Positions 12,779 to 57,313 of a DNA stretch of 64,000 nt are shown in pieces. The stretch is from NCBI GenBank assembly GCA_003507395.1, contig DNVW01000016.1, positions 12,726 to 76,725 of the forward strand. Direction: 5' to 3'. How positions within the stretch are numbered: position 1 is the first letter of the stretch; each line of letters starts with the position of its first letter. This DNA is from Clostridiales bacterium. GTDB lineage: Bacteria > Bacillota > Clostridia > TANB77 > CAG-508. The position numbers and the translations under genes were made by a program. A model generated the notes under the pieces. The model was not told where the DNA came from. It did not search any database and saw only the letters and a program-made list of their open reading frames with translations.

Positions 12779-12796
12779 AGAATCTGTTTTATCAGT

Positions 12797-12840
12797 AGGG
12801 ACGGAGATTTTGACAATCCAGCGTGATAGTCAAAATTCCT
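12797..12840. repeat. Member of the GGGACGG(G/A)GA(A)TTTTG(G/A)CA repeat family, with a hairpin (attttgac ... gtcaaaat)
   Basis: agggacggagattttgacaa resembles the motif at 23628, 29753 and 57221. It lies immediately 3' of a gene. Confidence 0.45.
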
Positions 12841-12955
12841 ATCTATACTGAAAAAAGTTGCAAAAACTGCCAAAAGGCTGGACTTTTTAACGGTTTTGTG
12901 GTATAATTATAGTATAAGTGGGTTAAGATAAAATTATGTTTTGGAGGTACCTAAA

Positions 12956-13332: not shown

Positions 13333-13944
13333 ATGAGAGATATTTATGAGGTTTCACATTCTGTATATTGTTATCCTAATACAGAAGTATTAATAAATAA
13401 ATTAAATATTAAAGATATTAAAAAATTGCAAATTTATGAGGCTAAAATAACGGCAGCAAAATCTTTAGGATTAAGAAAAAAAGGAATAACAGGAGATTTT
13501 GATGTAAAACATATTAAGCAAATTCATAAATATTTATTTGAAGATATATATCCATTTGCTGGAGAATTTAGAACAGAAAATATAGCAAAAGGGGAATTTA
13601 GATTTGCACAAAGTGAATATATAGAGCCAGAATTAGAAAATCTATTAAATAAATTAAAAAAGGAAAATTATTTAGAAGGTTTAGATAAAAAAGAGTTAGC
13701 AATTAAATTAGCCTACTATTTAGCAGAACTAAACGTATTACATCCATTCAGAGAGGGAAATGGAAGAACAAACAGAGAATTTATAAGACAATTAGCATTA
13801 AAAAATGGCTATCAGTTAGACTTAAAAAAAGCCAAAGCAGAGGAAATATTAGAAGCGAGCATAGAATCAATAGTAGACACAAAAAAATTAGAAGAAATAA
13901 TCTATGAATGCCTACAATTAGGGACTGCTCCAAATTGTCCTTAG
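13333..13944 (+). CDS. Fic/Doc family protein (AMPylase-type toxin)
   Basis: Canonical Fic motif HPFREGNGRTNREF. The ATG at 13333 has an aggaaaaaag RBS. The longer track ORF from 13279 starts at GTG inside a palindrome and is unlikely. Confidence 0.8.
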   Translation: MRDIYEVSHSVYCYPNTEVLINKLNIKDIKKLQIYEAKITAAKSLGLRKKGITGDFDVKHIKQIHKYLFEDIYPFAGEFRTENIAKGEFRFAQSEYIEPELENLLNKLKKENYLEGLDKKELAIKLAYYLAELNVLHPFREGNGRTNREFIRQLALKNGYQLDLKKAKAEEILEASIESIVDTKKLEEIIYECLQLGTAPNCP

Positions 13945-13956
13945 TGACAATTTGGG

Positions 13957-13971
13957 CTGTCCCTAATTGGG
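13957..13971. repeat. CTGTCCCTAATTGGG palindromic motif (left boundary of the Rpn cassette)
   Basis: CCCTAATTGGG is a near-perfect palindrome. Related copies lie at 15089-15141. Confidence 0.5.
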
Positions 13972-14793
13972 AATATTTTCTATTTCTTGCATGGTTAATC
14001 CTGTTGCTTTAGCTATTGTTTCTTTGCTTATTTTTAACTCTAACATTTTCTTTGCAACCTCTAGTTTACCTTTTTCCAGTCCTTTAGCGTAAATCGCTTT
14101 TTCGTCCATTATTGCTTTTAGTCGTAAATCTGCTATTCTTTGCATTCTTTCGTCTTCACTTAAACTATCAAGTTTTTCTGTTGCCTCTTTTATTTCTTTG
14201 TTTTCTCCCATCTTTTCAGTCACCCTTTCCGATTTTGGATTTTCCAAAAAATATAACCAATCTAATAGTTTATCTTTTTCCTTTTCTCTTCCCTTTATTT
14301 TTGGTAACTCTATAATATCAATTTCTAACTTATCTGTCAATATTTTACCTCCTGTTTTATTATCCATTATTTTCCATACACTATGATAATCCATTTCTTT
14401 TAAATTCTTTACTTCAAAATCTGTTATTAATATTACAATTGTTTTTTCAAGTAATGAATAATCTTCTCCTATTTTTATTTGTCTTGTATACAACCTACTC
14501 CAATAATATAGTATTCTTTCTATTATATTGCTTTGATCAATTAATTGCATTTCTATATTGCATTTTTCCTTTCCATCAAGCTCTGCTAGTATGTCTAATA
14601 CTCCTAATTTGTCGTCTTTAAATTCTCTTCTTAATATCGGGTTCTTACTTAAATCTATACTTTCTATTTTTCTTTTTAATATTGTTTCTAAAAAACCTTT
14701 TGTTATTCTTTCGTTTCCTATTTCACCAAATAATGCTTGAAATACTACATCTAATTTAGGCGATAATGTTTTTGTTTCTTTGTTTTTTTCCAT
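13963..14793 (-). CDS. Rpn/YhgA-like PD-(D/E)XK nuclease family putative transposase (Transposase_31 / TIGR01784-like)
   Basis: N-terminal LSPKLDVVFQALFGE...LDILAELDGKEKCNIEMQ is typical of this family. Confidence 0.7.
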   Translation of the reverse strand: MEKNKETKTLSPKLDVVFQALFGEIGNERITKGFLETILKRKIESIDLSKNPILRREFKDDKLGVLDILAELDGKEKCNIEMQLIDQSNIIERILYYWSRLYTRQIKIGEDYSLLEKTIVILITDFEVKNLKEMDYHSVWKIMDNKTGGKILTDKLEIDIIELPKIKGREKEKDKLLDWLYFLENPKSERVTEKMGENKEIKEATEKLDSLSEDERMQRIADLRLKAIMDEKAIYAKGLEKGKLEVAKKMLELKISKETIAKATGLTMQEIENIPN

Positions 14794-15088: not shown

Positions 15089-15141
15089 GGGCTGTCCCCA
15101 ATTGGGCAAATGGGATAATTGGGGACTGTCCCTAATTGGGG
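15089..15141. repeat. Cluster of GTCCCCAATTGGG / GTCCCTAATTGGGG palindromic motifs, including a 10-bp-stem inverted repeat (gtccccaatt ... aattggggac)
   Basis: Seen directly in the sequence. It forms the right boundary of the Rpn cassette. Confidence 0.5.
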
Positions 15142-21051: not shown

Positions 21052-22329
21052 ATGAAAATTATTGAAAGTTTAAAGATTAAAGAAAAAGCTTATGTGGAAA
21101 CTCTAGAAAATGGACTAAAAATAATAATAGTACCTAAAAAAAATACAAATAAAAAATATATAATATGGGGCGTACATTTTGGATCTATAGACAATCACTT
21201 TATAATGCCCGGTACAGGAGAAGAAGTATATATACCAGATGGAGTAGCACACTTTTTAGAACATAAAATGTTTGAACAGCAAAATGGAACTAATAGTTTA
21301 GATACTTTAATGGCATTAGGATTAGATGCAAATGCATATACAACAAATGACCATACAGCATATTTGTTTGAGTGTACGGATAATTTTTACGAGGGATTAG
21401 ATGAACTTATGGATTATCTTCAGAATCCATATTTTACAGACGAAAACGTAGAAAAAGAAAAGGGAATAATAGGTCAAGAGATAAAAATGTATGAAGATGA
21501 CCCAGGATGGCAACTATATATGAATGCATTAGATTGTATGTATAAAGATAATCCTATAAAAATAGATATAGCAGGAACAGTAGAATCAATTTCAAAAATA
21601 ACACCAGAAATATTATATAAATGTTACAATACATTCTACAATCCTGCAAATATGACAATGGTAGTATGTGGAGACTTTGAACCAGAAAAATTATTAGAGG
21701 AAATAAAAAGAAGACTTGTAAAAAGAGAAAGTCAGGGAGAAATAAAAAGGATATATCCAAAAGCAGAAAATGAAATAAATATGCCATATAAAGAAAAGAA
21801 AATGGAGGTAAGTACGCCAGCTTTTGTAATTGGATATAAAGATATGCAAAATATAGACTATAGTGCAAAAACAGCAACAAAGAGACATATAGCGATAGAA
21901 ATATTGTTAAATATGATTATAGGCAAAAGTTCTAATTTATATAAAGAATTATATGAAAAAGGAATAATATTAGCAGAGCCAAGTATGGACTATGAGTTTA
22001 CAAAGCAATATGCACATGTTATAATATCTGGGCAATCAAATAACCCAGAAGAAATACAAAAAAGAATAAAAGAAACAGTAATGAAATTCAAAGAACAAGG
22101 AATAGAAGAACAGCACTTTGATAGAATAAGAAAAAAAGTGTATGGAGACTATGTAGTAGAATACAATAGCGTTGGAGATATAGCCAGAATGTTTTTAGCA
22201 GACAATATGAAAGAAATAAATAGCTTTGATTATATAGAAGAATATGAAACCGTAACAAAGCAATATGTAGAAGAAATATTAAAAGATGTATTTAAAGAAG
22301 AAAATATGGTATTGTCAATAATAAAATAG
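21052..22329 (+). CDS. M16-family zinc peptidase (active subunit)
   Basis: It carries the inverted zinc motif HFLEHKMF (HxxEH) and a downstream E. Confidence 0.75.
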   Translation: MKIIESLKIKEKAYVETLENGLKIIIVPKKNTNKKYIIWGVHFGSIDNHFIMPGTGEEVYIPDGVAHFLEHKMFEQQNGTNSLDTLMALGLDANAYTTNDHTAYLFECTDNFYEGLDELMDYLQNPYFTDENVEKEKGIIGQEIKMYEDDPGWQLYMNALDCMYKDNPIKIDIAGTVESISKITPEILYKCYNTFYNPANMTMVVCGDFEPEKLLEEIKRRLVKRESQGEIKRIYPKAENEINMPYKEKKMEVSTPAFVIGYKDMQNIDYSAKTATKRHIAIEILLNMIIGKSSNLYKELYEKGIILAEPSMDYEFTKQYAHVIISGQSNNPEEIQKRIKETVMKFKEQGIEEQHFDRIRKKVYGDYVVEYNSVGDIARMFLADNMKEINSFDYIEEYETVTKQYVEEILKDVFKEENMVLSIIK

Positions 22330-22390
22330 TAAACAACTATGGGACAGAGAATTAGTTATCAAAAAAATATATTTATACTCTAGAAAAGGA

Positions 22391-23529: not shown

Positions 23530-23620
23530 AGATGTGAGAAATAAAAAAGTCCTAGCTAAACTGAAGTGATAAAATGAAAGTAGACACAAAAAGTCTGCTT
23601 TCATTTTTTTGTGCCAATAG

Positions 23621-23718
23621 GTGCCAATAGGGACGGGGAATTTTGGCACAAAAAATTTTAATTTAACAAAAAGCGAGTGAAAATGAAATTTCACTCGTTC
23701 TGGCGCAGATGGGCTTAA
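23621..23718. repeat. ~97-bp att-proximal repeat A. It consists of the GTGCCAATAGGGACGGGGAATTTTGGCAC hairpin, a CGAGTGAAA-ATGAAA-TTTCACTCG hairpin, and a degenerate tRNA-Leu 3' core (tggCgcagatgg at 23701-23712).
   Basis: It is ~96 percent identical to 29747-29844. It is preceded by a 10-bp tandem duplication, gtgccaatag x2. Confidence 0.7.
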
Positions 23719-23815
23719 ATTTTTACTCATCTTTTCTTACACCTTCAGGCTTTTTCAAATTTCGTATCTTTGTCCCGACATTGTCGGGAGATATTTTCTA
23801 TTCAATTATTTATTA

Positions 23816-24121
23816 TTATTCTACTTCGATTATCTTATTATTTTCTAGTAGTTTTTCATATTTCTCGTTCATCTTGTCCATATATTCTGTGTATTTATAC
23901 ATTTGTTTTTTCTGATGATAATCAAATATATCTCCATAAATATTAATTGTAGTTTGAATATTAGCATGTCCTAGAACTTTTTGCAATGTTGCTAAATCCA
24001 TACCAGCCTCAATACATCTAGTTGCAAAAGTATGCCTTAACATATGAACATGCACATCACTTGTCTTTTCATTTACATAGTGAACTCCTTTCGATTTAAG
24101 TTTGTTTTGTAAAGTTACCAT
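23816..24121 (-). pseudogene. Tyrosine recombinase/integrase, C-terminal ~100-codon remnant
   Basis: [41 protein letters not shown] aligns to the C-terminus of the integrase at 29979-31427. The N-terminal ~380 codons are missing. Confidence 0.75.
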
Positions 24122-24123
24122 CT

Positions 24124-24152
24124 ATTGACATTATTTCTTTAAAATTATATAA
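24124..24152 (+). promoter_or_regulatory. Consensus sigma-A promoter (TTGACA-17-TATAAT)
   Basis: Seen directly in the sequence. It abuts the truncated integrase and points toward the 24291 gene. Confidence 0.55.
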
Positions 24153-24290
24153 TATAGATATAGTTATAAGATACTTGATACATCTTATTGAAATAGTATA
24201 GAGACTTAGTTGTTACAACTATATATAACATATTATTATAAAAGTCAAGTAGTTTTCTAAAATTTTATAAGATTTTTTATGAGGTGTGAA

Positions 24291-25226
24291 ATGATTAGAG
24301 AAGAAAAGATTGAATTTACTGCAAAATGGTGCAAGTACAGTAAATATATAATTGAAAAGAAAGACGATAAATATTACATATTACCAGATAAAAATGCAAA
24401 ACCAAGTACATATGATCCATTTGAAGTAAAAAATCAAATATTAAAAGATTTATTAGTAATGGGTAAAGAATCAGTTGGTAATGAAATGTATAAACTTGGT
24501 AATAAGGAAGTAACAATTGAAGCACAAAGTAAAATGGAAAAATTCCAAAATTTAGTGTTTGAATTTGTAAGTAATTATGGATTACTTGGTAATTTTAGAT
24601 ATCTGCCAGAAAATTATGAATTTATGGATAATGGAGATATCCCTGTAAATTTAGGATATAATACTTCTATAAGTGCATTGGAATTTGAAAAGAAATATTT
24701 TTGGAAAGATTCAAAAATGGACTGGTCAAGTACAATGAAAGCAAACGATTATCACAGAAATACTGGTCTTAATGATGATTTTGAACAAATTGAAGGAGAT
24801 AGACTTAGTGATGTAATTTTTTCAAAAAATTATGCTGAAACTATTGCAGAAATTATTAACTTTGCAACAATTATATACAATAAAAAGCTTTTAATTTGTG
24901 CATACTTATATGATGATGTATCAGAAGATATAAGACAAGTATATCAAGAAAGTATTACTGGAGATAGCTTAAAAAAGCCAAATATTTCATATAGTGCTGA
25001 AGATGGACAAATAAAATTCAAATGGAATTTTATGTCTTTAAGTGAAATAATAGAAATTATCTTACTTTTAAATGAAACATCTGGAAGAACTGAAGTAAAA
25101 CTATGTAAGCATTGTGGTAAACCATTTATTGCTGAAAACATTAAAGCTGAATATGACACTATACAATGTAGGAATAGAGAAAATATAAACAAAAGCAGAC
25201 AAAAGAAGAATAATTATATTGAGTAA
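24291..25226 (+). CDS. Hypothetical protein with a C-terminal CxxC...C Zn-ribbon (paralog of 32549-33481)
   Basis: It is clearly homologous to the element B protein (KYxKYxI...YYIxPDK...; C-terminal CKHCxKPFIAxN...CRN). The RBS is gaggtg. It was not recognised as a named family. Confidence 0.45.
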   Translation: MIREEKIEFTAKWCKYSKYIIEKKDDKYYILPDKNAKPSTYDPFEVKNQILKDLLVMGKESVGNEMYKLGNKEVTIEAQSKMEKFQNLVFEFVSNYGLLGNFRYLPENYEFMDNGDIPVNLGYNTSISALEFEKKYFWKDSKMDWSSTMKANDYHRNTGLNDDFEQIEGDRLSDVIFSKNYAETIAEIINFATIIYNKKLLICAYLYDDVSEDIRQVYQESITGDSLKKPNISYSAEDGQIKFKWNFMSLSEIIEIILLLNETSGRTEVKLCKHCGKPFIAENIKAEYDTIQCRNRENINKSRQKKNNYIE

Positions 25227-25250
25227 ATTAAAATTATTTGGAGGTTGAAA

Positions 25251-26246
25251 ATGGAAATTAATTATCCACCATATAAAATTACTAATAAAATGTTAAACTA
25301 TGTATCAGATATAATGAAAAAAATTGGAGAAACAAATTATTTTGAAAATTTAAATAGATATCCAGAATTAAGAAGAAAATCAAGAATTAAATCAATTCAT
25401 TCTTCACTTGCTATTGAAAATAATCAATTATCATTATTTCAGGTTGAAGATGTAATAAATGGAAAACCAGTAATTGGAGAACAAAAAGATATACAAGAAG
25501 TAAAAAATGCTTATGAAGCTTATGAACAAATTGATAAAGTAAATCCATATTCTGTAGATGATTTAAAGAAAATACACGGAATATTAACTTTCTTAATTGA
25601 AAAAGATGCTGGTAAATTTAGAAATCATGGCGAAGCAGTTTATGATGGAGATATACAAATATTTATGGCTCCTCCTTACAAAATGGTTCCTACATTAATA
25701 GATAACTTATTTAACTGGATGAATGAAGTTAAAAACACAATAAATCCACTTATTTTATCGTCTATATTCCATTATGAATTTGTTTTCATACATCCTTTTC
25801 ATGATGGAAATGGTAGAACAGCAAGGATATGGCAAACTGCAATCTTATCACATTGGGAAAAAGCATTTACCTACTTACCTATTGAAAGTATGATTAGAAA
25901 AAATCAAGAAGAATATTATAAAGCTATTCAAAATTGTAACAATGCAGGAGAATCAACAGAATTTATAGAGTTTATGTTAAAAATTATTGATGACACAATA
26001 GATGAATTGATGAACTCAAAAGAAATGAGAGATAAAGCTCAATTACTACTTTCTGATAATGAAATGAAAATAATTGAATGTATTAAAAGAAATGTTTTAA
26101 TAGGTGCAAAAGAAATAATTAAAGAAACTAATATTGCTGATAGAACAGTAAGAAGAATTTTAAAAAAATTACTAGATAATAATACCATTGAAACAATTGG
26201 AAAAGGTGAAAAGGACCCTAATAAAAAATATAAAATTATTGAATAA
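25251..26246 (+). CDS. Fic-family protein with a C-terminal winged-helix DNA-binding domain
   Basis: Fic motif HPFHDGNGRTARIW. The C-terminus is wHTH-like (IIECIKRNVLIGAKEIIKETNIADRTVRRILKKL). Confidence 0.75.
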   Translation: MEINYPPYKITNKMLNYVSDIMKKIGETNYFENLNRYPELRRKSRIKSIHSSLAIENNQLSLFQVEDVINGKPVIGEQKDIQEVKNAYEAYEQIDKVNPYSVDDLKKIHGILTFLIEKDAGKFRNHGEAVYDGDIQIFMAPPYKMVPTLIDNLFNWMNEVKNTINPLILSSIFHYEFVFIHPFHDGNGRTARIWQTAILSHWEKAFTYLPIESMIRKNQEEYYKAIQNCNNAGESTEFIEFMLKIIDDTIDELMNSKEMRDKAQLLLSDNEMKIIECIKRNVLIGAKEIIKETNIADRTVRRILKKLLDNNTIETIGKGEKDPNKKYKIIE

Positions 26247-26260
26247 TGGCATAGTACTGA

Positions 26261-26458
26261 CATAGTAATGGCAGAGTTAAAAGTTATTTTTACAACTTCC
26301 CGACCATTTTTGATGAGTATATATTAGAAAATGGTCATGTAGACTTAAATCATTTCATTCGTTTTTATGAAGAAAATAAATCTAAGTATATTATCATTGA
26401 TGAATATAATACTGAATTTACTCTAGATGAGTTCTTAAGGGAAGTAAATTTAAAATAA
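26261..26458 (+). pseudogene. Start-less C-terminal ORF fragment beginning at the TAATGGCAGAG junction
   Basis: A 65-codon open frame (...YFYNFPTIFDEYILENGHVDLNHFIRFYEENKSKYIIIDEYNTEFTLDEFLREVNLK*) has no Met and a stop immediately upstream. Confidence 0.35.
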
Positions 26459-26483
26459 ATGTAATTTATAAAGAGGTTTAAAA

Positions 26484-26747
26484 ATGGAATTAAAAGATTT
26501 AGAAAAAGAAATTGAAAATATTAAAACTAGAAATAAAAAAGTTGAATTAGATAAAAAATGGGAAACGAGCTTAACTAGAAAAATATGTATTTGTATATTA
26601 ACATATATAGTTGTAATTGTCTATTCATACATAGTAAGAAATTACTCTAATATACTTTTAAGCTCACTTGTCCCTGTTATTGGTTTTACATTGTCAACAT
26701 TATCATTAAAATACATAAGAAAAATATGGGAGAAGAATATAAAATAA
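26484..26747 (+). CDS. Small two-TM membrane protein, hypothetical
   Basis: Hydrophobic segments are present. No motif was found. Confidence 0.3.
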   Translation: MELKDLEKEIENIKTRNKKVELDKKWETSLTRKICICILTYIVVIVYSYIVRNYSNILLSSLVPVIGFTLSTLSLKYIRKIWEKNIK

Positions 26748-26769
26748 ATATATTTAAGAGGTATATAAA

Positions 26770-27294
26770 ATGTTATATGTAATTAGACATGGACAAGTTG
26801 ATACAAATATAAAAAATCAGGTTAATGGCTGGAACGAGGAAAAACTTAATTCAGTAGGAATACAACAAGCTATAAATGCAGGTAATCAGCTTAAAAATAT
26901 AAAAATCGATGTAGTATTTTGTTCACCATTATTGAGAACAAAACAAACCTACAATAATTTAAATATAAAAGACATTCCAATTTTTTATGACGATAGGATA
27001 AAAGAAAGGAATTCTAATAGTATGGTTTATGCTGATGTAGAAACATTAGATAATAATATTTGGTATGATGGAACAAAAAATATTATATATAAAGATTCTG
27101 AAGGATTTAAGAGTATAATAAATAGAACTGAATCAATATTAAATGATATAAAAAATAATTATAAAGACAAAAATGTATTAATAGTCACTCACGGAGATGT
27201 TTGTAAAGCTGTTTATTTATATTTCAATCCAAATACCCAAGACATTAGTAAATTCCAACAAAATAATTGTGAAATAGTTTGTTATAAATTTTAG
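26770..27294 (+). CDS. Histidine phosphatase family protein (phosphoglycerate mutase-like)
   Basis: N-terminal catalytic RHG motif (LYVIRHGQVDTN) and the THGDV second His motif. Confidence 0.65.
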   Translation: MLYVIRHGQVDTNIKNQVNGWNEEKLNSVGIQQAINAGNQLKNIKIDVVFCSPLLRTKQTYNNLNIKDIPIFYDDRIKERNSNSMVYADVETLDNNIWYDGTKNIIYKDSEGFKSIINRTESILNDIKNNYKDKNVLIVTHGDVCKAVYLYFNPNTQDISKFQQNNCEIVCYKF

Positions 27295-27302
27295 GGGTGT
27301 TT

Positions 27303-27962
27303 ATGGGTAAAAAAAAGAATATAATTTATACAATTTTTATTATGGTATTTTCAATTATATGTGGAATAATATCAAAAGATTATTTTTTAGGAACTATAAT
27401 ACTTGCGAGTGGACTTCTTAATTCTTACTATGCAAGTGTTGGCAAAATATATAATTACATATTCGGAGCAGTTTATTGTGCTTTAAGTGGTTATGTTTGT
27501 TTGAAAACAGGTTTATATGGAATAGCCATTTTATCTTTTGCAGTTTATTTTCCATCACAAATACATGGGTATTTTAGTTGGAAAAATAAAAAGAATGAAA
27601 ATAAGGAAGTTAAAGTTAGAGGTTTTACTTTAAAAAACTCAATAATAATTATTTCTTCTTGTATTATTGGAAGTTTATTATTAGGGCTATTATTAAGTAA
27701 AATACCAACTCAACAATTAGTCTTTTTAGATTCTAGCAGCAATATTTTAAATCTATGTGGCATAATCCTTATGAATTTAAGATTTAAAGAATGCTGGGCT
27801 GTATGGTTATTTAATAATACTGTTGATTTAATAATCTGGGTTGTTAATTATATGAATAATACAGTAAATAGTACAATGATGTTATTAGTTTCAATTGGTT
27901 ATTTATTAATAAATATATATGGTTTAATAAAATGGTATAAAAAAAGTGGGTATGAAATATGA
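27303..27962 (+). CDS. pnuC: PnuC-like nicotinamide riboside transporter
   Basis: A ~220-aa polytopic protein with a terminal W..Y..K-rich tail. It lies adjacent to a nicotinamidase-like gene. The assignment is by similarity of topology and sequence feel, not a strict motif. Confidence 0.5.
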   Translation: MGKKKNIIYTIFIMVFSIICGIISKDYFLGTIILASGLLNSYYASVGKIYNYIFGAVYCALSGYVCLKTGLYGIAILSFAVYFPSQIHGYFSWKNKKNENKEVKVRGFTLKNSIIIISSCIIGSLLLGLLLSKIPTQQLVFLDSSSNILNLCGIILMNLRFKECWAVWLFNNTVDLIIWVVNYMNNTVNSTMMLLVSIGYLLINIYGLIKWYKKSGYEI

Positions 27963-28273
27963 AATATTGTATGATTGAAGTTGCCTTTGGAATTAAGAAA
28001 GAAGCAAATAAAGCAGTTGATGAATTATTAAATAAAAGATTAGTTGCAAGTTGTCAAATATTAGAAAGTAATAGCATTTGGAATTGGAAACAAAAACGAG
28101 AACAAAGCAAAGAATATATAGTTTTAATGAAAACACAGTTTTATTTACAGAATAAAATATACAATGTAATTAAAAATATACATAGTTATGAGTGTTTTGA
28201 GTTCGCTGTTTTTGAATTAAGCAGTTGTAATGAAGATTATTTAAATTGGATAGAATCAGAAACAAATAAATAA
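27959..28273 (+). CDS. cutA: CutA1-like divalent-cation tolerance protein
   Basis: VASCQIL...IWNWKQ...EYIVLMKTQ...IHSYECFEF...YLNWIESET matches the CutA signature pattern. Confidence 0.6.
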   Translation: MKYCMIEVAFGIKKEANKAVDELLNKRLVASCQILESNSIWNWKQKREQSKEYIVLMKTQFYLQNKIYNVIKNIHSYECFEFAVFELSSCNEDYLNWIESETNK

Positions 28274-28289
28274 TTGAGGAGAATAATAA

Positions 28290-28772
28290 ATGAATAGATT
28301 ATTATTAGTAATAGATGTTCAAAATGATTTTATAAATGAGCATACAAAAAATATTTTAACAAAAATAAAAGAATTAGTGGATTCAAATAAATATGATTTA
28401 ACTGCTTTTACTAGATTTATCAATGATGAAAATAGCATTTGGTATAAAAAATTAAATTATAAAGGCTGTATGACTAAAGAAGGACAAGCAATTGCTATTA
28501 ATACTAAAAACAATAAAGTATTTGATAAAAACATATATACTGCAGTAAATGATGAATTGAAAAAATATATTCAAAAAAATAATATTTCTAAAATATATTT
28601 ATGTGGCTTTGATACAGATGCTTGTGTTCAAAAAACTGCTATTGATTTATTTGAACAAAACTATGATGTATATGTTTTAAAAGATTATTGCATGAGCCAT
28701 TTAGGTAAGGAAACTCATGATTTTCATATAAATAATCTTGCAAGATTAATAGGAAAAGATAGAATTATTTAA
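28290..28772 (+). CDS. Isochorismatase-family hydrolase (nicotinamidase PncA-like)
   Basis: LLVIDVQNDF and the catalytic Cys context CGFDTDACV are present. Confidence 0.7.
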   Translation: MNRLLLVIDVQNDFINEHTKNILTKIKELVDSNKYDLTAFTRFINDENSIWYKKLNYKGCMTKEGQAIAINTKNNKVFDKNIYTAVNDELKKYIQKNNISKIYLCGFDTDACVQKTAIDLFEQNYDVYVLKDYCMSHLGKETHDFHINNLARLIGKDRII

Positions 28773-28773
28773 G

Positions 28774-28796
28774 CACTTCAAATTGAAGTGTTTTTT
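28774..28796 (+). terminator. Terminator (cacttcaa-a-ttgaagtg followed by a T6 run)
   Basis: It belongs to the same CTTCNNATTGAAG palindrome family as 2860 and 4901. Confidence 0.6.
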
Positions 28797-28830
28797 AGTT
28801 TAGATCTTCACATAATAGGAAAAGCTGAAT

Positions 28831-28859
28831 TTGCAAAAATTCACATAATGTGGTATAAT
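28831..28859 (+). promoter_or_regulatory. Consensus promoter TTGCAA-17-TGgTATAAT (extended -10)
   Basis: Seen directly in the sequence. It drives the GC-rich ORF. Confidence 0.55.
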
Positions 28860-28936
28860 TATATTGTATCACGTAAGTGAACATATCAAAAGTCCCTAAA
28901 TGGGCAATGCTTGCAATGCAAGCAAAAGGAGTCAGC

Positions 28937-29599
28937 ATGAGTAACGAAATCGCTAACAACGCATCCTTCATCTTTGCAGGTAAGAAGCCGAAATTCTTAA
29001 ATCTCGTGTACATTTCTTGTGAAGGCGACATTCAGAAACTTCCTGAAGATGTTCGGACTGCAGTTTCGCTGGAACCAGGAGGAGCAATCCGCGTAGAATC
29101 CAGAGAATATGCAAATGGAGAATTGATTCCCCTTCCTGCATACATCGCTTGGGAAAAGGAGGACAAGGACAAAGAAAGATGTCCTCATGGTTGGAATCTT
29201 TGGAACAAGGCGAATGCTTCCGCACAGCTTTCCGAAGGATTCCTCGAAGAAGTTGATGGTAAATTCCGTCAGACGAAGATAGTGCCCCTTAAAGCACAAC
29301 TCTTCACTGGTGAAATTCCCGAAATCTTTCTCGAGATGCCCCGTTTTGATGGGCAGGTAACCGTTGAAAACGGAAATCTGTTTATCAAGACTCCGTGGGG
29401 GATTTCCAATTGTAAAGCTGGTAACGGTTTTGCAATTGTATATGGTTTGGGAAATGACGCTGAAAAGCCTAAATTCTTCGGAATGCTTGATGGGAATATT
29501 CTTACCGTTGGAACAGCTTCGTTTGAAGATTACTACCACGTCACGGAGGATGGCAAGGTGATCGAAACTCTTCGCGAGTATTTTGAGAGCCTGCATTAA
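28937..29599 (+). CDS. Hypothetical protein encoded by a GC-rich (foreign-composition) cassette
   Basis: G+C and codon usage (GGC, CGC, CTG) are strikingly higher than the surroundings. The RBS is aaaggag. A long antisense ORF is typical of GC-rich DNA. No family was recognised. Confidence 0.5.
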   Translation: MSNEIANNASFIFAGKKPKFLNLVYISCEGDIQKLPEDVRTAVSLEPGGAIRVESREYANGELIPLPAYIAWEKEDKDKERCPHGWNLWNKANASAQLSEGFLEEVDGKFRQTKIVPLKAQLFTGEIPEIFLEMPRFDGQVTVENGNLFIKTPWGISNCKAGNGFAIVYGLGNDAEKPKFFGMLDGNILTVGTASFEDYYHVTEDGKVIETLREYFESLH

Positions 29600-29654
29600 A
29601 CCCCCAAATAGTCAACTGTGACTTGAGAAGATAGCTATCAACTCTAAAAACAGC

Positions 29655-29697
29655 CAAGAGCCAAGTCGTATACAAACGCTAGGCTCTTGTTTTATTT
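29655..29697 (+). terminator. Terminator (caagagcc ... ggctcttg followed by a T-run)
   Basis: An 8-bp stem and a T-tract at the end of the GC-rich block. Confidence 0.55.
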
Positions 29698-29746
29698 ATA
29701 TTTTAAGTCAGATTTAAACTTCTTTCAGATATAAAGTTAAATAATA

Positions 29747-29844
29747 TGCCAATAGGGACGGGGAATTTTGGCACAAAAATATTTTAATTTAACAAAAAGC
29801 GAGTGAAAATGAAATTTCACTCGTTCTGGTGCAGATGGACTTAA
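29747..29844. repeat. ~98-bp att-proximal repeat B (attR arm). It has the same two hairpins as repeat A and ends in a tRNA-Leu 3' core copy, tggtgcagatgg (29827-29838).
   Basis: The 12-bp core is identical to tRNA-Leu 3' end 41805-41816. Confidence 0.7.
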
Positions 29845-29894
29845 TAAAACTCCCATCTTTCTTAGTATTTCTCATAGATTTACAGCTTACCGTA

Positions 29895-29946
29895 TTTTTG
29901 GAACTTAGTTCCAAATTATTCTTATTAAATTTTTTAGTTCCAAATT
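29895..29946. repeat. TTTGGAAC / GTTCCAAATT 10-bp repeats (3 copies) just inside attR
   Basis: The same decamer recurs as direct repeats at 41645-41667, at the other end of the element. Confidence 0.45.
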
Positions 29947-29978
29947 TTCAATTTTATATCATATAAAATTCTATATTA

Positions 29979-31427
29979 TTATTTTAATTTTAAATATTCT
30001 TCTTCAAATCTTTCAAAGTTTTCTTCTAATATAGTATTTGTATCTTGCATATACTTTGTGTATTTTTGATTTAATTCCTTTTGTCTTAAATATGAGTAAA
30101 TATATCCATAAGTGTTTATAGTTGTAGTAATGTCTGCATGACCTAGAATTTTTTGTAATACTTCAATAGCAATTCCAGATTCTATACATCTTGTTGCAAA
30201 AGTATGCCTTAGCATATGAGTATGTGTATCACTTGATTTATAATTAACATAGTGTATTCCTTTTTTCTTACTAACTTTTTTATGTTTTAATGTTATAACT
30301 CTAAGTCCTGCATTTTTACATATTATTTTAAATGCTGAATTAACTTGTCCATCAGTATAAAAGTTGCCACTAGGTTTAGAAAATAATACATCATATTTAT
30401 TTTCTTTGTATTGTTCTAATGCTTTTTGTATCACTGGTACTGCTAAAGGTGTAAGATCTATTGTTCTTAATCCATTTTTAGTTTTAGTTATATCTCCAAT
30501 TACAACTTTATTGTTTATATCTTTTGTCAATGTTCTTCTAACATTAATGCTTCCAATATTTCCTACAATATTTATATCACTAGGTCTTAATGCAAGTATT
30601 TCTCCTATTCTCATTCCAGTATATAAAGCAATTAGTAATATTAGCTTATATTTTGATTTATGAGTTTTTAGATATTCTGTTAAAACATATTCTTCTTTTC
30701 TGGTAAAAGCATCAACCTTTTTATCTTCTTTAAAACTCTCTGGCTTTTTAATTCCCTCTCCAATTAAAAATGGATTTTTTTGAATAATACCATTTGCATA
30801 AGCAATAGAAAAAGCATTTTTAATTTTACTATAATATTTGTCTATTGAAGAATTAGATTTTGCTCGTTCACTTTCTAAATATTGTTTTATCTGGTTAGCT
30901 GTAACATTCTGTATTGGAATATTTGCGAATTTATAATTTCCAATTGCTTTTATAGTTTGCATATGCCTATTATAAGTGTTTGGTTTAATTTCCTTGTTTC
31001 TTACTCTTTTGGTTTCGTATGATTCACATATTGAAACAATAGTTGCATCTTTCTCTTTAGTTTTCTCAGTTTTCCCATGAATAGAAACATCTTGGATATA
31101 TTCAAGCATTTTATTTAAGGCTTCTTCTTTTGTTTTTCCATTAAATTGCATCCTATTTGTATCTTTTGTTGTGGATTTTCTGCCATTTGTTAAAAGCTCT
31201 ACTTTGAATTTGGGATAAATATAGAATTTATCGCAATGTTCTTTATCTTTACAATTATTGCAATCTTCACATTCTTTCATTTTGAATAGCTTTTTTCTAT
31301 TAGCACAAAATTCTTTGTGATTACAATTACTACAAGTAGGGCATATTGGTCTATCATTGGCTTTTCTTTTATCTTTAGTAGTATACTCGTGTACAGAATA
31401 GTCTTTGCCTTCAACTAAAGTTTTCAA
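29979..31427 (-). CDS. int: Tyrosine-type site-specific integrase with a Cys-rich N-terminal extension
   Basis: R..HxxR..Y catalytic region ([10 protein letters not shown] ... TINTYGYIY) and multiple CxxC motifs at the N-terminus. Confidence 0.85.
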   Translation of the reverse strand: MKTLVEGKDYSVHEYTTKDKRKANDRPICPTCSNCNHKEFCANRKKLFKMKECEDCNNCKDKEHCDKFYIYPKFKVELLTNGRKSTTKDTNRMQFNGKTKEEALNKMLEYIQDVSIHGKTEKTKEKDATIVSICESYETKRVRNKEIKPNTYNRHMQTIKAIGNYKFANIPIQNVTANQIKQYLESERAKSNSSIDKYYSKIKNAFSIAYANGIIQKNPFLIGEGIKKPESFKEDKKVDAFTRKEEYVLTEYLKTHKSKYKLILLIALYTGMRIGEILALRPSDINIVGNIGSINVRRTLTKDINNKVVIGDITKTKNGLRTIDLTPLAVPVIQKALEQYKENKYDVLFSKPSGNFYTDGQVNSAFKIICKNAGLRVITLKHKKVSKKKGIHYVNYKSSDTHTHMLRHTFATRCIESGIAIEVLQKILGHADITTTINTYGYIYSYLRQKELNQKYTKYMQDTNTILEENFERFEEEYLKLK

Positions 31428-31580
31428 ATTTCTTCCTCCTTTAAAAAATTTAAAGGAATACCTTGTCCGTTTTTCATCTCTTGTGATATAATCATTAAAG
31501 AGATAACGAAAAGATATCCCATCATTTCGGTCTAATCTCTGTTAGAGAATTTAGAAGTTCCTTTTCTAAGTTCTCATTTT

Positions 31581-31796
31581 TTATCTTAATGTTATAGATT
31601 TTGAATAGTCGTGTCTTTCCTTTAGAAATTCTTTAAAAGCATCTGCTTCAATCCACCAACTTCTACCAACTCTTTGAGCAGGGAATTCATTATTGTTAAA
31701 TAATTCTAGTCCTTTCTTTGGACCAATTTTTAACAACTGGCATACATCTTTTAAAGAATATACTTTCATTCCAGCAAGTTCTTGCATAAATATCAC
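31581..31796 (-). CDS. xis: Excisionase-family HTH DNA-binding protein
   Basis: KVYSLKDVCQLLKIGPKKGLELFNNNEFPAQRVGRSWWI matches the excisionase/MerR-like HTH pattern (RxWRI). Confidence 0.55.
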   Translation of the reverse strand: MIFMQELAGMKVYSLKDVCQLLKIGPKKGLELFNNNEFPAQRVGRSWWIEADAFKEFLKERHDYSKSITLR

Positions 31797-31850
31797 TCCT
31801 TTCGCTTTAAAATTTGGTGCAAAAAATACCTCATCACTAAAGATGGGGTA

Positions 31851-32300
31851 TTACCTTACTTGTTCTTTATAAAATCTTTTTACTTTTCTTTTGTATTTTT
31901 TTGGTAAAACATATGAAGTTTTTATTTTATCGTCTAATATTAAATTTCCGTCATTATCTTGTTTATAAACACTTATATTTGATTTTACAAATGCATCAGT
32001 AGAAATTCCAAAAGAATGTCTAGACATTTGCCTTGCATCACTATCTAATAAAGCCTGTAGTTTTTCGTAATCTTCTTTATCAGATTTATCTTTTTTTCTT
32101 TCATAAGTTTCTAAATATTCTTTATTATATTTAGCTTTTCTTAATTTTGCTTCTTGATGTCTTCTTTGCTTTTCTTCTGGATATCTATCATCATTTCTAA
32201 CAACTTTTGAAACATATTCGCTACTCACTTTAAAAAACTCTGCAATATCTTTTTGCTTCATATGCTCTTCAAAATACATTTTTAAGATTTCTTCTACCAT
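31851..32300 (-). CDS. Small HTH-containing protein (sigma-70 region 4-like), hypothetical regulator
   Basis: N-terminal KQKDIAEFFKVSSEYVSKV helix-turn-helix and a basic C-terminus. Confidence 0.35.
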   Translation of the reverse strand: MVEEILKMYFEEHMKQKDIAEFFKVSSEYVSKVVRNDDRYPEEKQRRHQEAKLRKAKYNKEYLETYERKKDKSDKEDYEKLQALLDSDARQMSRHSFGISTDAFVKSNISVYKQDNDGNLILDDKIKTSYVLPKKYKRKVKRFYKEQVR

Positions 32301-32548
32301 TTTTTACCTCCTTTCTTGGTTGATTTTTATACTTGCTAAATTTTAAGCATAATAATCCTATATATATTGTACTTACAAATTTTGCAAAAATTATTGCTTT
32401 TATTTACTTTATGTAGTACAATTTAAGTATGATAAAGTATCTAGCAACAATCTATGTTAATAGCTAAGCACACTAAAATAATAACATAGTAATTTTTGAA
32501 AGTCAACAACTTTTTTAAAATTTTTTAAGAAATTAGGGGGAAATTATA

Positions 32549-33481
32549 ATGATTAAGGAAAAGAATCCCAATTATAAAGGGCTTTGGGCTAAATATAAAA
32601 AATATGAAATTTTAAAAATAAATAATGAATACTATATTAGACCAGATAAAAAAGCTTCTTATGAAATCTATGATGTGTTTGATAAAGAAAAAGAACTTCT
32701 TGTAGATTTTCTTTTAATTGGTAGAGAAGCTATGAATTATGCAGATATAAATGATGCTAATTGTGATTTAATGTCTACAGAAACTAAATATCAAGATATG
32801 ATTTTAGATTTTGTAAATAAATATGGTATGTTTGGAGAACTTACATATAGATTATTAAATACTCACATAATTTCATCTGGTAAAGCACTAACTCAAGGAT
32901 ATTCTAATATTGATGAAGTGTCTGCTAGTACATATATAAAACCATATTTTATTGGTAATGAAGATATACAAAGAATAGATTTCGATCATGGAGTTAATGA
33001 AGATATATTAAAATATGTATATGGCTCTGATAATCCAAATGGAGATTTATTAAATAGCTTTGATAAAGGCGAAGATTTTAGTATTGTATTTTCTAAATGC
33101 TATACTGAAAAAATAGCTAATATTTTAGTAATGGCTAGAGCTTTATATAGAATATTTAATTCAGTAGAAAATAGCTCTTGGACTGAAAATGAAGATAAAA
33201 AAGCAATATATCAAAAATATGCAAATATGTTTAACCCTAACAATGTAGCATTTAATTTTGATTTTGCAGATGAAAAAACATTTTTAAATTGGAATTTCAA
33301 TTCTCTATTCCAAGCTATTGAGCTAATACTTGCTTTTAATGAAACAAATGAAAGAAAAGAAGTTAAAATGTGTAAACATTGTTTTAAACCATTTATTGCA
33401 AAAAATTTAAATAGTGATTATGATACAGCAAGTTGTAGAAATGTAGCAAATGTTTATAGAAGCAGAGCAAAAAATAAATAA
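32549..33481 (+). CDS. Hypothetical Zn-ribbon protein (paralog of 24291-25226)
   Basis: It is homologous throughout to the element A protein. The RBS is aggggg. Confidence 0.45.
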   Translation: MIKEKNPNYKGLWAKYKKYEILKINNEYYIRPDKKASYEIYDVFDKEKELLVDFLLIGREAMNYADINDANCDLMSTETKYQDMILDFVNKYGMFGELTYRLLNTHIISSGKALTQGYSNIDEVSASTYIKPYFIGNEDIQRIDFDHGVNEDILKYVYGSDNPNGDLLNSFDKGEDFSIVFSKCYTEKIANILVMARALYRIFNSVENSSWTENEDKKAIYQKYANMFNPNNVAFNFDFADEKTFLNWNFNSLFQAIELILAFNETNERKEVKMCKHCFKPFIAKNLNSDYDTASCRNVANVYRSRAKNK

Positions 33482-41804: not shown

Positions 41805-41892
41805 TGGTGCAGATGGCCGGAATCGAACCGGCACGGTTTATTCAACCGCAGGATTTTAAGTCCTGTGCGTCTACCAGTTCCGCCACATCTGC
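41805..41892 (-). tRNA. tRNA-Leu (anticodon UAA) with a long variable arm and encoded CCA
   Basis: The reverse complement reads GCAGATGTGGCGGAACTGGTAGACGCACAGGACTTAAAATCCTGCGGTTGAATAAACCGTGCCGGTTCGATTCCGGCCATCTGCACCA. It has a 7-bp acceptor stem and a T-arm GGTTCGATTCC. Confidence 0.85.
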
Positions 41893-57211: not shown

Positions 57212-57313
57212 GTGCCAAAGGGGACGGGGAATTTTGGCACTATTTTATTGCAAAGGAAAAAGCAATTTAATTTTCAAAATGAAATGTGCCAAAATTCCCC
57301 GTCCCCTTTGGCA
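57212..57313. repeat. Structured repeat element with 27-bp perfect inverted-repeat arms (57214-57240 and 57286-57312), each arm itself hairpin-forming. It is a member of the GGGACGGGGAATTTTGGCAC family.
   Basis: gccaaaggggacggggaattttggcac is exactly the reverse complement of gtgccaaaattccccgtcccctttggc. It lies immediately 3' of adhE. Confidence 0.7.

What the first reader, a model, noticed from the sequence alone, without database searches (positions are those of the whole stretch)
23611..23650. Undescribed ~20-bp repeat family GGGACGG(G/A)GA(A)TTTTG(G/A)CAC found immediately 3' of genes at four loci
Copies lie at 12797-12816 (after the amidohydrolase), 23628-23648 (after the spo0E-like gene), 29753-29774 (after the GC-rich cassette) and 57221-57240 / inverted at 57290-57312 (after adhE). 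In three copies the motif is the loop of a GTGCCAA...TTGGCAC hairpin. The family looks like a REP/MITE-like element or a structured 3'-end RNA motif. Two copies are embedded in the ~97-bp arms next to the integrase genes.
Basis: seen in the sequence. Interest (0 to 1): 0.6.

Follow-up and report, generated by a model that had tools for sequence, protein, structure and literature searches.

The report
Dispersed hairpin repeat of a tyrosine transposase
The ~20-bp motif is real. It is the core of a 27-nt hairpin repeat that is scattered through the genomes of many uncultured low-GC gut Clostridia and that flanks, as inverted repeats, a RAYT/TIRYT-type single-strand-DNA transposase gene, so it is a new member of the known REP/REPIN-like class of miniature mobile repeats.

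Summary
The window holds five clear copies of a 27-nt unit, TGYCAAWRGGGACGGRGAATTTTGRCA: 12787-12818+, 23619-23651+, 29744-29776+, 57210-57242+ and 57284-57316-. There is also a decayed inverted partner at ~12827-12852. The unit is a 6-8 bp hairpin (TGYCAA/TTGRCA) around a near-invariant G-rich loop.

An exact 19-mer search found it in at least 118 stretches from ~47 uncultured gut Clostridia assemblies. Neighbouring copies are always '+ then -' (45 against 0). Most copies lie between genes, about 10 nt after a stop codon.

In 10 related genomes a 225-250 aa Y1 (HUH) transposase gene sits among these units, and in at least 7 of them it is bracketed by inverted units. The protein has a Y-x3-NP motif, its best solved relative is E. 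coli TnpA-REP, and it has a weak C-terminal HTH signal. That is the REPtron/TIRtron layout of RAYT Group 1, also called TnpA-Y1 subclass 2.1 or 'TIRYT'.

The '97-bp arms' next to the integrases are duplicated flanks of a tRNA-Leu attachment site that happen to carry one unit.

The kind is known; this is a new member. Transposition itself is inferred, not shown, and no transposase gene lies in the window.

The parts
12787..12818 (+). Repeat unit, diverged variant (TATCAGTAGGGACGGAGA-TTTTGACA, 1-nt deletion). It starts 12 nt after the amidohydrolase stop codon (12778).
   Evidence: covariance-model hit of 32.5 bits, E 9e-7.
12827..12852 (-). Decayed inverted partner of the 12787 unit. The stem arm AGTCAAAAT is kept and the loop is mutated. 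Together they form a degenerate doublet.
   Evidence: Read from the sequence. The DNA fold of 12785-12864 pairs the two arms, -13.7 kcal/mol, z -4.4. It falls below the model threshold.
22341..22352 (+). Possible loop-only remnant (GGGACAGAGAAT) 12 nt after the stop of ORF 21052-22329. Weak.
   Evidence: One-mismatch hit; 8.6 bits, E 4.8, model positions 12-23 only; sequence.
23612..23621 (+). Tandem 'stutter' copy of the outer stem arm (TGCCAATAGG), directly in front of the unit.
   Evidence: The same kind of duplication occurs in 28 of 214 units elsewhere, against 23 of 2380 random positions.
23622..23648 (+). Repeat unit TGCCAATAGGGACGGGGAATTTTGGCA. It lies after the terminator of the spo0E-like ORF and forms the outer end of att-flank arm 1.
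   Evidence: 48 bits; fold -13.1 kcal/mol, z -4.7.
29747..29773 (+). Repeat unit, identical in sequence to the 23622 unit. It forms the outer end of att-flank arm 2 and is most likely a copy carried along in the duplicated att flank rather than an independent insertion.
   Evidence: (D6); 49.2 bits. The same arrangement is seen in L066.
57213..57239 (+). Repeat unit, left half of an inverted doublet. It starts 11 nt after the adhE stop codon (57202).
   Evidence: 49.1 bits; single-unit DNA hairpin -10 kcal/mol, z -7.1.
57240..57286 (.). 47-nt spacer of the doublet. It is locus-specific, and its first and last few bases continue the palindrome.
57287..57313 (-). Repeat unit, right half of the doublet, in inverted orientation.
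   Evidence: 49.8 bits. The whole doublet folds at -42.3 kcal/mol, z -11.4.
23674..23712 (-). Context, not part of the repeat: a terminator hairpin (23674-23697) plus TGGCGCAGATGG (23701-23712), a copy of the 3' end of tRNA-Leu. Together these are the rest of arm 1.
29827..29838 (+). Context: second copy of the tRNA-Leu 3'-end core (TGGTGCAGATGG), in arm 2, next to the full-length integrase gene 29979-31427(-).
41805..41892 (-). Context: intact tRNA-Leu(taa). Its 3' end carries the third copy of the core, so it is the true attachment site of the integrase-bearing islands.

Best explanation
The motif is the conserved core of a 27-nt hairpin unit (about 32 nt in some genomes). This unit is the terminal-inverted-repeat, or REP-like, sequence of a RAYT/TIRYT-type Y1 (HUH) tyrosine transposase system found in a clade of low-GC, uncultured gut Clostridia.

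The window copies are non-autonomous singlets and inverted doublets (REPIN/BIME-like).

Inferred mechanism: a transposase encoded elsewhere in the genome, apparently as a single copy, recognises the folded single-stranded DNA hairpin and its invariant G-rich loop. It then cleaves and rejoins at the outer (5') side of the unit. Over time this multiplies and reshuffles the units within each genome.

The units accumulate just downstream of genes, where hairpins are tolerated. There they may secondarily act as 3'-end hairpins in mRNA.

Shown here: the unit's anatomy, its dispersion, its doublet geometry, its extragenic placement, its association with the transposase gene, and genome-specific sequence variants.

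Inferred only: catalysis by that protein, the cleavage position, and any effect on transcripts.
For: (1) Five copies in 64 kb against <0.4 expected.

(2) The exact 19-mer occurs in at least 118 8-kb stretches from about 47 Clostridia assemblies. A looser scan finds 214 units in 0.94 Mb, against about 1 per 40 shuffled loci.

(3) Eight positions that the search pattern did not fix are conserved (TGYCAAWR). They pair with TTGRCA. The variable pair is C-G in 58 and T-A in 48 of 131 distinct units, and the stem exceeds all slid-register controls.

(4) Adjacent copies are '+ then -' 45 times and '- then +' 0 times, with spacers of 4-62 nt.

(5) Units are mostly intergenic, at a median of about 10 nt after the upstream stop codon.

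(6) Unbiased clustering of all ORFs in the loci found one family lying a median 6.5 nt from the motif. It consists of 225-250 aa proteins with Pfam Y1_Tnp above threshold, invariant HxH and Y-x3-NP motifs, and E. coli TnpA-REP 4ER8 as best PDB profile match over residues 4-144, E 1e-4, with no IS608-type TnpA at E<=1.

(7) In at least 7 of the 10 loci the gene has a unit (+) about 105-140 nt upstream and a unit (-) 3-7 nt after its stop. This is the same outer-end geometry as the doublets.

(8) Each of the 10 genes is in a different assembly. Assemblies with 14-22 sampled units show 0 or 1 gene.

(9) Each genome carries its own unit variant (TA|A, CG|A, CG|G or AG|G). This indicates amplification or turnover within each genome.

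(10) The outer arm carries tandem partial duplications in 13% of units, against 1% of random sites. At one orthologous site in three species, whose flanks are 95-99% identical, the main differences lie in this stutter.

(11) Literature: RAYT-like genes flanked by long TIRs that share GGGGWSAS, with moderately abundant TIR repeat families arranged as dimers (PMC3733652). [quoted passage not shown]
Against: No transposase gene lies in the window, and the window's own genome could not be retrieved. The link to a cognate enzyme in this organism is therefore by analogy with relatives.

The protein scores 60.8 bits against NCBIfam REP_Tyr_transpos, below the curated cut-off of 80.

The canonical 5' GT[AG]G tag of REPs is absent.

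The covariation rests on few independent events, because the variants are genome-specific.

No clean filled-site versus empty-site pair was found, so no transposition event and no target site is documented.

The 19 core positions are conserved by construction of the search.

Single copies show a strand bias relative to genes (39:10). A purely selfish DNA element does not require such a bias.
Confidence: 0.85

Rival explanations
1. The unit is primarily a host cis-acting RNA element in 3' UTRs, such as a terminator, an mRNA-stabilising hairpin or a protein-binding hairpin with two GGA/GGGGA motifs in its loop. On this view it has been conserved by selection on transcripts and is not a mobile repeat.
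For: Single copies are sense to the upstream gene 39 times and antisense 10 times. They sit a median of about 10 nt after stop codons. The loop is near-invariant across about 47 genomes. T is enriched just 3' of the hairpin. In L058 and L071 a doublet occupies the place where L102 has an ordinary terminator hairpin.
Against: There is no Rfam match.

About half of all units are the antisense halves of inverted doublets.

Units bracket a transposase gene as inverted repeats.

The copies downstream of adhE are not stably orthologous: a doublet with a 47-nt spacer, a doublet with a 7-nt spacer, a partial single unit, or none.

Variants are homogenised within genomes.

At 23.6 kb the unit follows a separate, conventional terminator.

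The consensus terminator scan does not call the units, because their loops are longer than 8 nt.

The sense bias is confounded with replication direction: 34 of 36 sense copies with a clear GC-skew sign also follow that skew.
Confidence: 0.06
2. The motif is the attachment or recombination site of the neighbouring tyrosine integrases (an att core or arm-type site), and the other copies are secondary att sites.
For: Two copies lie about 200 bp from the 3' ends of two integrase genes, inside 97-bp direct repeats. In both the window and L066 the repeated arms begin exactly at the unit's outer edge.
Against: The sequence shared by all three junctions is TGGYGCAGATGG, the 3' end of tRNA-Leu(taa) (3 exact sites against 0.07 expected). 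The tRNA-proximal junction at 41805 has no unit.

In L066 the repeat extends 57 nt into the tRNA.

A homologous integrase is found in only 1 of the 118 other loci.

The units flank a different recombinase type, a Y1 transposase, in 10 loci.
Confidence: 0.02
3. It is a conventional MITE derived from a DDE-type insertion sequence, or the ends of a true IS200/IS605 insertion sequence, rather than a RAYT/TIRYT-associated repeat.
For: It has terminal inverted repeats around a transposase gene and short non-coding derivatives with the same ends. Pfam's name for the domain is 'Transposase IS200 like'.
Against: No DDE transposase family is enriched near the units.

The catalytic motif is Y-x3-NP (class 2, TnpA-REP-like), not the Y-x3-Q of IS200 TnpA (PMC6006769).

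The best PDB relative is TnpA-REP, not IS608 or ISDra2 TnpA.

One gene was found per assembly against many units.

Doublet spacers vary in length and sequence, so there is no fixed MITE body.
Confidence: 0.04

Closest known systems
TIRYT / 'TIRtron' TIR repeat families (Di Nocera, De Gregorio & Rocco 2013, PMC3733652). These correspond to TnpA-Y1 subclass 2.1 (Quentin et al. 2018, PMC6006769) and RAYT Group 1 (Bertels et al. 2017, PMC5581495).
   Same: A RAYT-like Y1 gene with HUH and Y-x3-NP motifs and a C-terminal extension with weak HTH similarity. It is flanked by inverted repeats that lack GTAG. The repeat contains a G-rich motif, GGGGACGG, against the published GGGGWSAS (7 of 8). The repeats form a moderately abundant dispersed family arranged as singlets and dimers. 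Group 1 is reported as 'also found in the Clostridia'.
   Different: Each repeat here is itself a covarying hairpin with a 12-15-nt invariant loop. Quentin et al. found no REP-like structures next to subclass 2.1 genes. The same 19-mer persists across about 47 species-level genomes. Hosts are uncultured gut Clostridia, which the REP/TIR surveys I read do not mention. Placement of the protein in subclass 2.1 was inferred from motifs and architecture, not from a tree.
REP / BIME / REPIN-RAYT systems of Proteobacteria (E. coli TnpA-REP, PDB 4ER8; Pseudomonas REPINs)
   Same: A short extragenic palindromic unit. Inverted doublets form long hairpins. Units sit mainly downstream of genes. A Y1 transposase gene, apparently single-copy, is bracketed by inverted units. 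Unit variants are genome-specific, which is consistent with co-evolution with the enzyme. TnpA-REP is the best solved relative of the protein.
   Different: There is no 5' GT[AG]G tag. The stem is short (6-8 bp) and the loop is large and conserved, whereas typical REPs have a long stem and a small loop. The protein is below the NCBIfam RAYT cut-off (60.8 against 80 bits) and carries an extra C-terminal domain. Doublet spacers are variable rather than fixed.
IS200/IS605 insertion sequences (IS608, ISDra2)
   Same: A Y1 HUH enzyme, hairpin-containing ends, and a presumed single-strand DNA mechanism. Strand bias may be related to replication direction.
   Different: Those elements have Y-x3-Q enzymes of about 130-150 aa, subterminal hairpins without terminal inverted repeats, and multiple identical IS copies. 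None of these features is seen here.

Membership tests
REP/REPIN-RAYT system | Short (20-40 nt) palindromic unit, repeated and dispersed in the genome | tested here: met
   A 27-nt hairpin unit. Five copies in 64 kb against <0.4 expected. 214 units in 0.94 Mb of related loci. DNA fold z scores of -7.1 (single) and -11.4 (doublet).
REP/REPIN-RAYT system | Predominantly extragenic, typically downstream of genes | tested here: met
   20 of 175 units or doublets fall inside long ORFs, and about half of those overlap only the ORF's last codons. The median distance from the upstream stop codon is about 10 nt.
REP/REPIN-RAYT system | Inverted doublets (REPIN/BIME) with one preferred geometry | tested here: met
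   45 '+ then -' pairs and 0 '- then +' pairs within 200 nt. Window examples: 57213-57313, and a decayed one at 12787-12852.
REP/REPIN-RAYT system | A Y1 (HUH) transposase gene flanked by the units in inverted orientation (REPtron) | tested here: met
   Met in related genomes: at least 7 of 10 genes are bracketed on both sides. It cannot be tested for the window's own genome, because no such gene lies in the window and the source contig was not found.
REP/REPIN-RAYT system | Conserved 5' GT[AG]G tetranucleotide at the foot of the hairpin | tested here: not met
   The consensus is TGYCAAWRGGGACGG... No GTAG or GTGG is conserved at either end.
REP/REPIN-RAYT system | Protein reaches the curated RAYT model (NCBIfam NF047646 REP_Tyr_transpos) | tested here: not met
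   60.8 bits against a cut-off of 80. Even so, it is the only NCBIfam hit, and 4ER8 TnpA-REP is the best PDB profile hit.
REP/REPIN-RAYT system | Transposase present at about one copy per genome, against many units | tested here: inconclusive
   The 10 genes are in 10 different assemblies, and assemblies with 14-22 sampled units show 0 or 1 gene.
TIRYT / TnpA-Y1 subclass 2.1 (RAYT Group 1) | Class-2 catalytic signature: HuH plus Y-x3-NP | tested here: met
   Invariant H60, H62, Y120, N124 and P125 in 16 aligned proteins. The middle residue of HuH is A, T or V, which is not among the residues listed for class 2 in PMC6006769.
TIRYT / TnpA-Y1 subclass 2.1 (RAYT Group 1) | C-terminal extension with HTH similarity (Bac_DnaA_C, HTH_23 or HTH_28) | tested here: inconclusive
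   An ~85-aa C-terminal extension is present in all 16 proteins. Only weak, sub-threshold hits were found, each in 4-5 of 16 members: HTH_11, HTH_23, HTH_28 and HTH_24.
TIRYT / TnpA-Y1 subclass 2.1 (RAYT Group 1) | Gene flanked by terminal inverted repeats unrelated to GTAG REPs, sharing GGGGWSAS | tested here: inconclusive
   Inverted repeats are present. The motif here is GGGGACGG (or AGGGACGG), which matches GGGGWSAS at 7 of 8 positions. The published TIR sequences are in a figure that could not be read.
TIRYT / TnpA-Y1 subclass 2.1 (RAYT Group 1) | Phylogenetic placement within subclass 2.1 | not tested
IS200/IS605 insertion sequence | TnpA with Y-x3-Q, about 130-150 aa, in multiple near-identical IS copies | tested here: not met
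   The motif is Y-x3-NP and the proteins are 225-250 aa. No IS608 or ISDra2 TnpA appears in the PDB hits at E<=1. One gene was found per assembly.
Integrase att site / integron attC | Sequence shared by all recombination junctions of the integrase-bearing element | tested here: not met
   The shared core is TGGYGCAGATGG (the tRNA-Leu 3' end) at 23701, 29827 and 41805. The 41805 junction has no unit.
Known structured RNA family (Rfam) | Match to a curated covariance model | tested here: not met
   The only Rfam hit in the window at gathering threshold is tRNA-Leu.

The most novel reading that the evidence does not exclude
The element may be more than a selfish repeat. Its 12-nt loop (GGGACGGRGAAT) is held essentially invariant across about 47 species whose transposases have diverged to as little as 44% identity. 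Single copies are strongly sense-oriented and sit about 10 nt after stop codons. The outer arm shows enzyme-like 'stutter' duplications. The edges of tRNA-Leu island repeats coincide exactly with the unit's outer edge in two genomes.

Together these features would fit a domesticated Y1-transposase/hairpin system in Firmicutes with a host function. Two candidates are a shared 3'-end RNA or protein-binding signal, or an enzyme that uses the TTGRCA arm as a base-pairing guide for TGYCAA targets and contributes to capture of flanking DNA by genomic islands.
Probability: 0.12. Interest if true: 0.65.

Novelty: new member of a known kind. Interest (0 to 1): 0.35.

Why it matters
REP/REPIN-RAYT systems have been studied almost entirely in Proteobacteria. 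For the largest RAYT group (Group 1, subclass 2.1), one survey found no associated hairpin repeats and another found only low-frequency flanking 16-mers.

This window and its relatives give a clear case, in Firmicutes, of such an enzyme paired with a well-defined hairpin repeat population. The loop is conserved across dozens of uncultured gut species, while the stems are genome-specific. That makes it a convenient system for testing what a subclass-2.1 enzyme recognises and where it cuts.

For annotation, the 27-nt unit marks gene 3' ends, assembly breakpoints and island borders in these MAGs. It should not be mistaken for an att site or a regulatory RNA.

Tried and rejected
- Rfam scan of the whole window: only tRNA-Leu.
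- Consensus terminator scan at two units: the units are not called because their loops exceed 8 nt. It did identify the separate hairpin in the integrase arm as a minus-strand terminator.
- Integrase att-site idea: rejected once the arms were seen to contain the tRNA-Leu 3' end and L066 showed the same layout.
- Search for the window's own contig through the exact lgt protein: not on record.
- Single-sequence PDB search with the transposase: no hit. A 16-sequence profile was needed.
- Search for filled-site versus empty-site pairs among the 118 loci, to define insertion boundaries and target: only orthologous filled sites and one replaced terminator were found, with no clean empty site.
- Attempt to separate gene-direction bias from replication-direction bias: only 2 discordant cases, so uninformative.
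- Integron attC, DNA-uptake sequence, CRISPR repeat and CsrA-decoy readings were considered from memory and dropped. There is no array, copy density is modest, and the association is with a Y1 transposase.
Per-genome copy numbers are therefore lower bounds, and core conservation in the retrieved set is partly by construction. By my own estimate, about 17 chance matches would be expected in 596 Gb. The three non-Clostridia hits (a Chlamydiota, an Allosphingosinicella and a Ruminococcus MAG) are single units, all three inside long ORFs, and fit that expectation.

Full report
**Observation.** GGGACGGRGA occurs at 12798+, 23630+, 29755+, 57221+ and 57296-, against 0.37 matches expected from shuffles. 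The longer pattern finds the same five sites. Reading the flanks shows that the conserved unit is longer than 20 bp: TGCCAA(T/A)(A/G)GGGACGGGGAATTTTGGCA. A covariance model built from copies in other genomes, run over the whole window with filters off, finds exactly these five (32-50 bits) and nothing else above noise. The only other traces are a loop-only remnant at 22341 and a decayed inverted partner of the 12.8-kb copy. That partner is visible by eye and in the fold.

**Anatomy.** I retrieved related copies with one scan of the species-representative genome collection, using GGGACGGRGAATTTTGRCA.
- The eight bases 5' of the query, which the search did not fix, are conserved as TG(C/T)CAA(A/T)(T/A)(G/A).
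- They pair with the 3' TTG(G/A)CA. At the one variable pair, 58 of 131 distinct units are C-G, 48 are T-A, 6 are T-G and 19 are unpaired. The given register beats every slid register: 70% of cells paired, against 25-49%.
- As single-stranded DNA, the 57.2-kb unit folds at -10 kcal/mol (z -7.1) and the whole 57.2-kb doublet at -42.3 kcal/mol (z -11.4).
- The stem variant is specific to each genome: whole assemblies are all T-A, all C-G, and so on. The covariation therefore reflects a few compensatory events, not many. The same result shows that the copies within a genome share recent ancestry or are homogenised.

**Distribution and geometry.** A looser scan finds 214 units in the 118 loci plus the window, against about one per 40 shuffled loci.
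- Neighbouring units within 200 nt are '+ then -' 45 times and '- then +' never, with spacers of 4-62 nt.
- The palindrome usually continues a few bases into the spacer. The rest of the spacer differs from locus to locus.
- Units are mostly intergenic and lie a median of about 10 nt after the stop codon of the upstream gene.
- Single copies in co-directional gene contexts are sense 39 times and antisense 10 times. This is confounded with GC-skew direction, and only two cases are discordant.
- About 47 assemblies carry the unit. All are uncultured gut Clostridia from human, mouse, rabbit, sheep and deer, including Clostridium sp. CAG:567 and CAG:452. Three single hits in unrelated phyla look like chance.

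**The associated gene.** I translated every ORF of at least 80 aa in the loci and clustered them without any prior expectation.
- One family stood out: 10 proteins in 10 loci, lying a median 6.5 nt from a unit.
- They are 225-250 aa, apart from one 165-aa ORF in L112. They match Pfam Y1_Tnp above threshold and have invariant HxH and Y-x3-NP motifs.
- As a 16-sequence profile, they match E. coli TnpA-REP (4ER8) end to end, E 1e-4, with no IS608-type enzyme at E<=1.
- NCBIfam's REP-associated tyrosine transposase model is the only NCBIfam hit, but at 60.8 bits it is below its 80-bit cut-off.
- In at least 7 of the 10 loci the gene has a unit in + orientation about 105-140 nt upstream and a unit in - orientation 3-7 nt after its stop. 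This is the same outer-end geometry as the doublets.
- All 10 genes are in different assemblies. Assemblies with 14-22 sampled units have none or one.
- The family is large, with 1509 relatives at E<=1e-5. The only name shown for any listed relative is the bare 'transposase'.
- The window itself has no such gene, and I could not retrieve its source contig.

**Comparison with the literature.**
- Di Nocera et al. (PMC3733652) described RAYT-like genes flanked not by GTAG REPs but by long terminal inverted repeats sharing GGGGWSAS. They called these 'TIRYT' and 'TIRtrons'. Some of the TIRs form moderately abundant dispersed families arranged as dimers. Their text never mentions Firmicutes or Clostridia.
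- Quentin et al. (PMC6006769) equate TIRYTs with TnpA-Y1 subclass 2.1, which has the Y-x3-NP signature and a C-terminal HTH-like extension. They map Bertels' RAYT Group 1 onto it, and they report finding no REP-like structures next to these genes.
- Bertels et al. [quoted passage not shown]
- The present proteins have the Y-x3-NP motif and an ~85-aa C-terminal extension with weak HTH_23/28/11 similarity. Their repeats carry GGGGACGG, a 7-of-8 match to GGGGWSAS.

I therefore file the element as a REP/TIR-type repeat of a RAYT/TIRYT system. It is a new member of a known kind, with four particular features: a covarying short stem, a large invariant loop, no GTAG tag, and a Firmicutes host.

**The integrase arms.**
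- ORF 23816-24121(-) is a C-terminal fragment of a tyrosine integrase. ORF 29979-31427(-) is a full-length one, followed by an HTH_17 excisionase-like gene.
- Each 97-bp arm consists of the unit, a hairpin that scans as a minus-strand terminator, and TGG(C/T)GCAGATGG.
- That 12-mer is the 3' end of tRNA-Leu(taa) at 41805-41892(-). It occurs exactly three times in the window (23701, 29827 and 41805), against 0.07 expected.
- The 29.8-41.8 kb segment carries the integrase, a MazF-like toxin, GNAT acetyltransferases, a MobA/VirD2 relaxase and a RepA_N protein. It is an integrative mobilisable element at tRNA-Leu. The 23.7-29.8 kb segment is a decayed earlier occupant.
- A related genome (L066) shows the same arrangement: unit + ~70 nt + hairpin + 57 nt of tRNA-Leu, repeated on both sides of a 3.3-kb insert.

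The two arm-embedded units are therefore one unit that lay downstream of tRNA-Leu and was duplicated with the att flank. They are not part of the integrase's core site. It is unexplained why the repeated flank begins exactly at the unit's outer edge in both genomes.

**Mechanism.** The following are shown: a hairpin unit, its dispersion, a single doublet geometry identical to that around the transposase gene, extragenic placement, genome-specific variants, and a hotspot of small tandem duplications at the outer arm. These duplications affect 28 of 214 units, against 23 of 2380 random sites. At one orthologous site shared by three species, with flanks 95-99% identical, the main differences lie in that stutter. 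The window copy at 23612-23631 has the same stutter.

The following are inferred from what is established for E. coli TnpA-REP and IS608-type enzymes. The Y1 enzyme binds the folded single strand, reads the invariant loop, and cleaves and rejoins near the outer G-run, generating new copies and doublets. Copies persist where hairpins are harmless or useful, just after genes. A secondary role as a transcript 3' hairpin is plausible. In L058 and L071 a doublet sits where L102 has an ordinary terminator, and T is enriched after the hairpin. This role is untested, and at 23.6 kb the unit follows a separate terminator.

**Limits.**
- The core 19 positions are conserved by construction in the retrieved set.
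- The scan was truncated, so copy numbers per genome are lower bounds.
- No transposition event or empty site was documented.
- The subclass assignment rests on motifs and architecture, not on a tree.
- The cognate gene in the window's own genome is assumed.

**Verdict.** The kind is known and this family is new. Interest is moderate (0.35). It is a tidy, testable example of a subclass-2.1/Group-1 RAYT with a defined hairpin repeat in gut Firmicutes.

Noticed in passing
window 29744-41892 (and 23612-29844): Two elements sit in tandem at the 3' end of tRNA-Leu(taa). The first is an integrative mobilisable element of about 12 kb. It carries a tyrosine integrase (29979-31427-), an HTH_17 excisionase-like gene (31581-31796-), a MazF-like toxin, GNAT acetyltransferases, an ADP-ribosylglycohydrolase, a MobA/VirD2 relaxase (38489-39832-) and a RepA_N protein (41054-41605-). 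The second is a decayed island of about 6 kb with an integrase fragment (23816-24121-), a Fic protein, a histidine phosphatase, a PnuC-like NMN transporter, CutA and an isochorismatase. The core TGGYGCAGATGG is present at all three junctions.
   Followed up: partly
window 23622 and 29747; L066 (reverse-complement coordinates ~4286 and ~7587): In two different genomes the direct repeat that flanks the tRNA-Leu islands begins exactly at the outer edge (TGCCAAT...) of the hairpin unit. Nothing found here explains why the duplicated att flank should end precisely there.
   Followed up: partly
window 13915-13969 and 15090-15138: A second, unrelated palindromic repeat (CAATTAGGGAC...GTCCCTAATTG) brackets a PD-(D/E)XK_2 'transposase' (Rpn/YhgA-like) gene at 13963-14793(-). 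There are 5 matches to CAATTAGGGAC with up to one mismatch, against 0.8 expected. Four of them are clustered around this gene.
   Followed up: partly
loci L002, L005, L047, L058, L089, L101, L108 and others; window 23612-23631: Tandem partial duplications (7-13 nt, sometimes triple) of the unit's outer arm occur in 13% of units. In doublets they are mirrored on both arms (L108). This suggests either cleavage and rejoining at variable points in the G-run, or re-insertion into excision footprints.
   Followed up: partly
window 28877-29599: A locally GC-richer stretch (0.316 in the 28-30 kb bin, against about 0.26 nearby) with long overlapping ORFs on both strands (240 aa on + and 199 aa on -) and no Pfam match.
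   Followed up: no
window 13279-13944 and 25245-26246: Two Fic/DOC-domain genes lie within 12 kb of each other. One (25245-26246) has a C-terminal winged-helix domain and sits inside the decayed island. The other is next to the PD-(D/E)XK_2 gene.
   Followed up: no
L026-type upstream regions of the transposase genes (e.g. L005, L064, L091): The ~105-140 nt between the upstream unit and the transposase start codon is conserved across genomes. It contains a promoter-like TTCGACA...(17-18 nt)...TGgTATAAT, which suggests the gene is expressed from its own promoter inside the inverted repeats.
   Followed up: no
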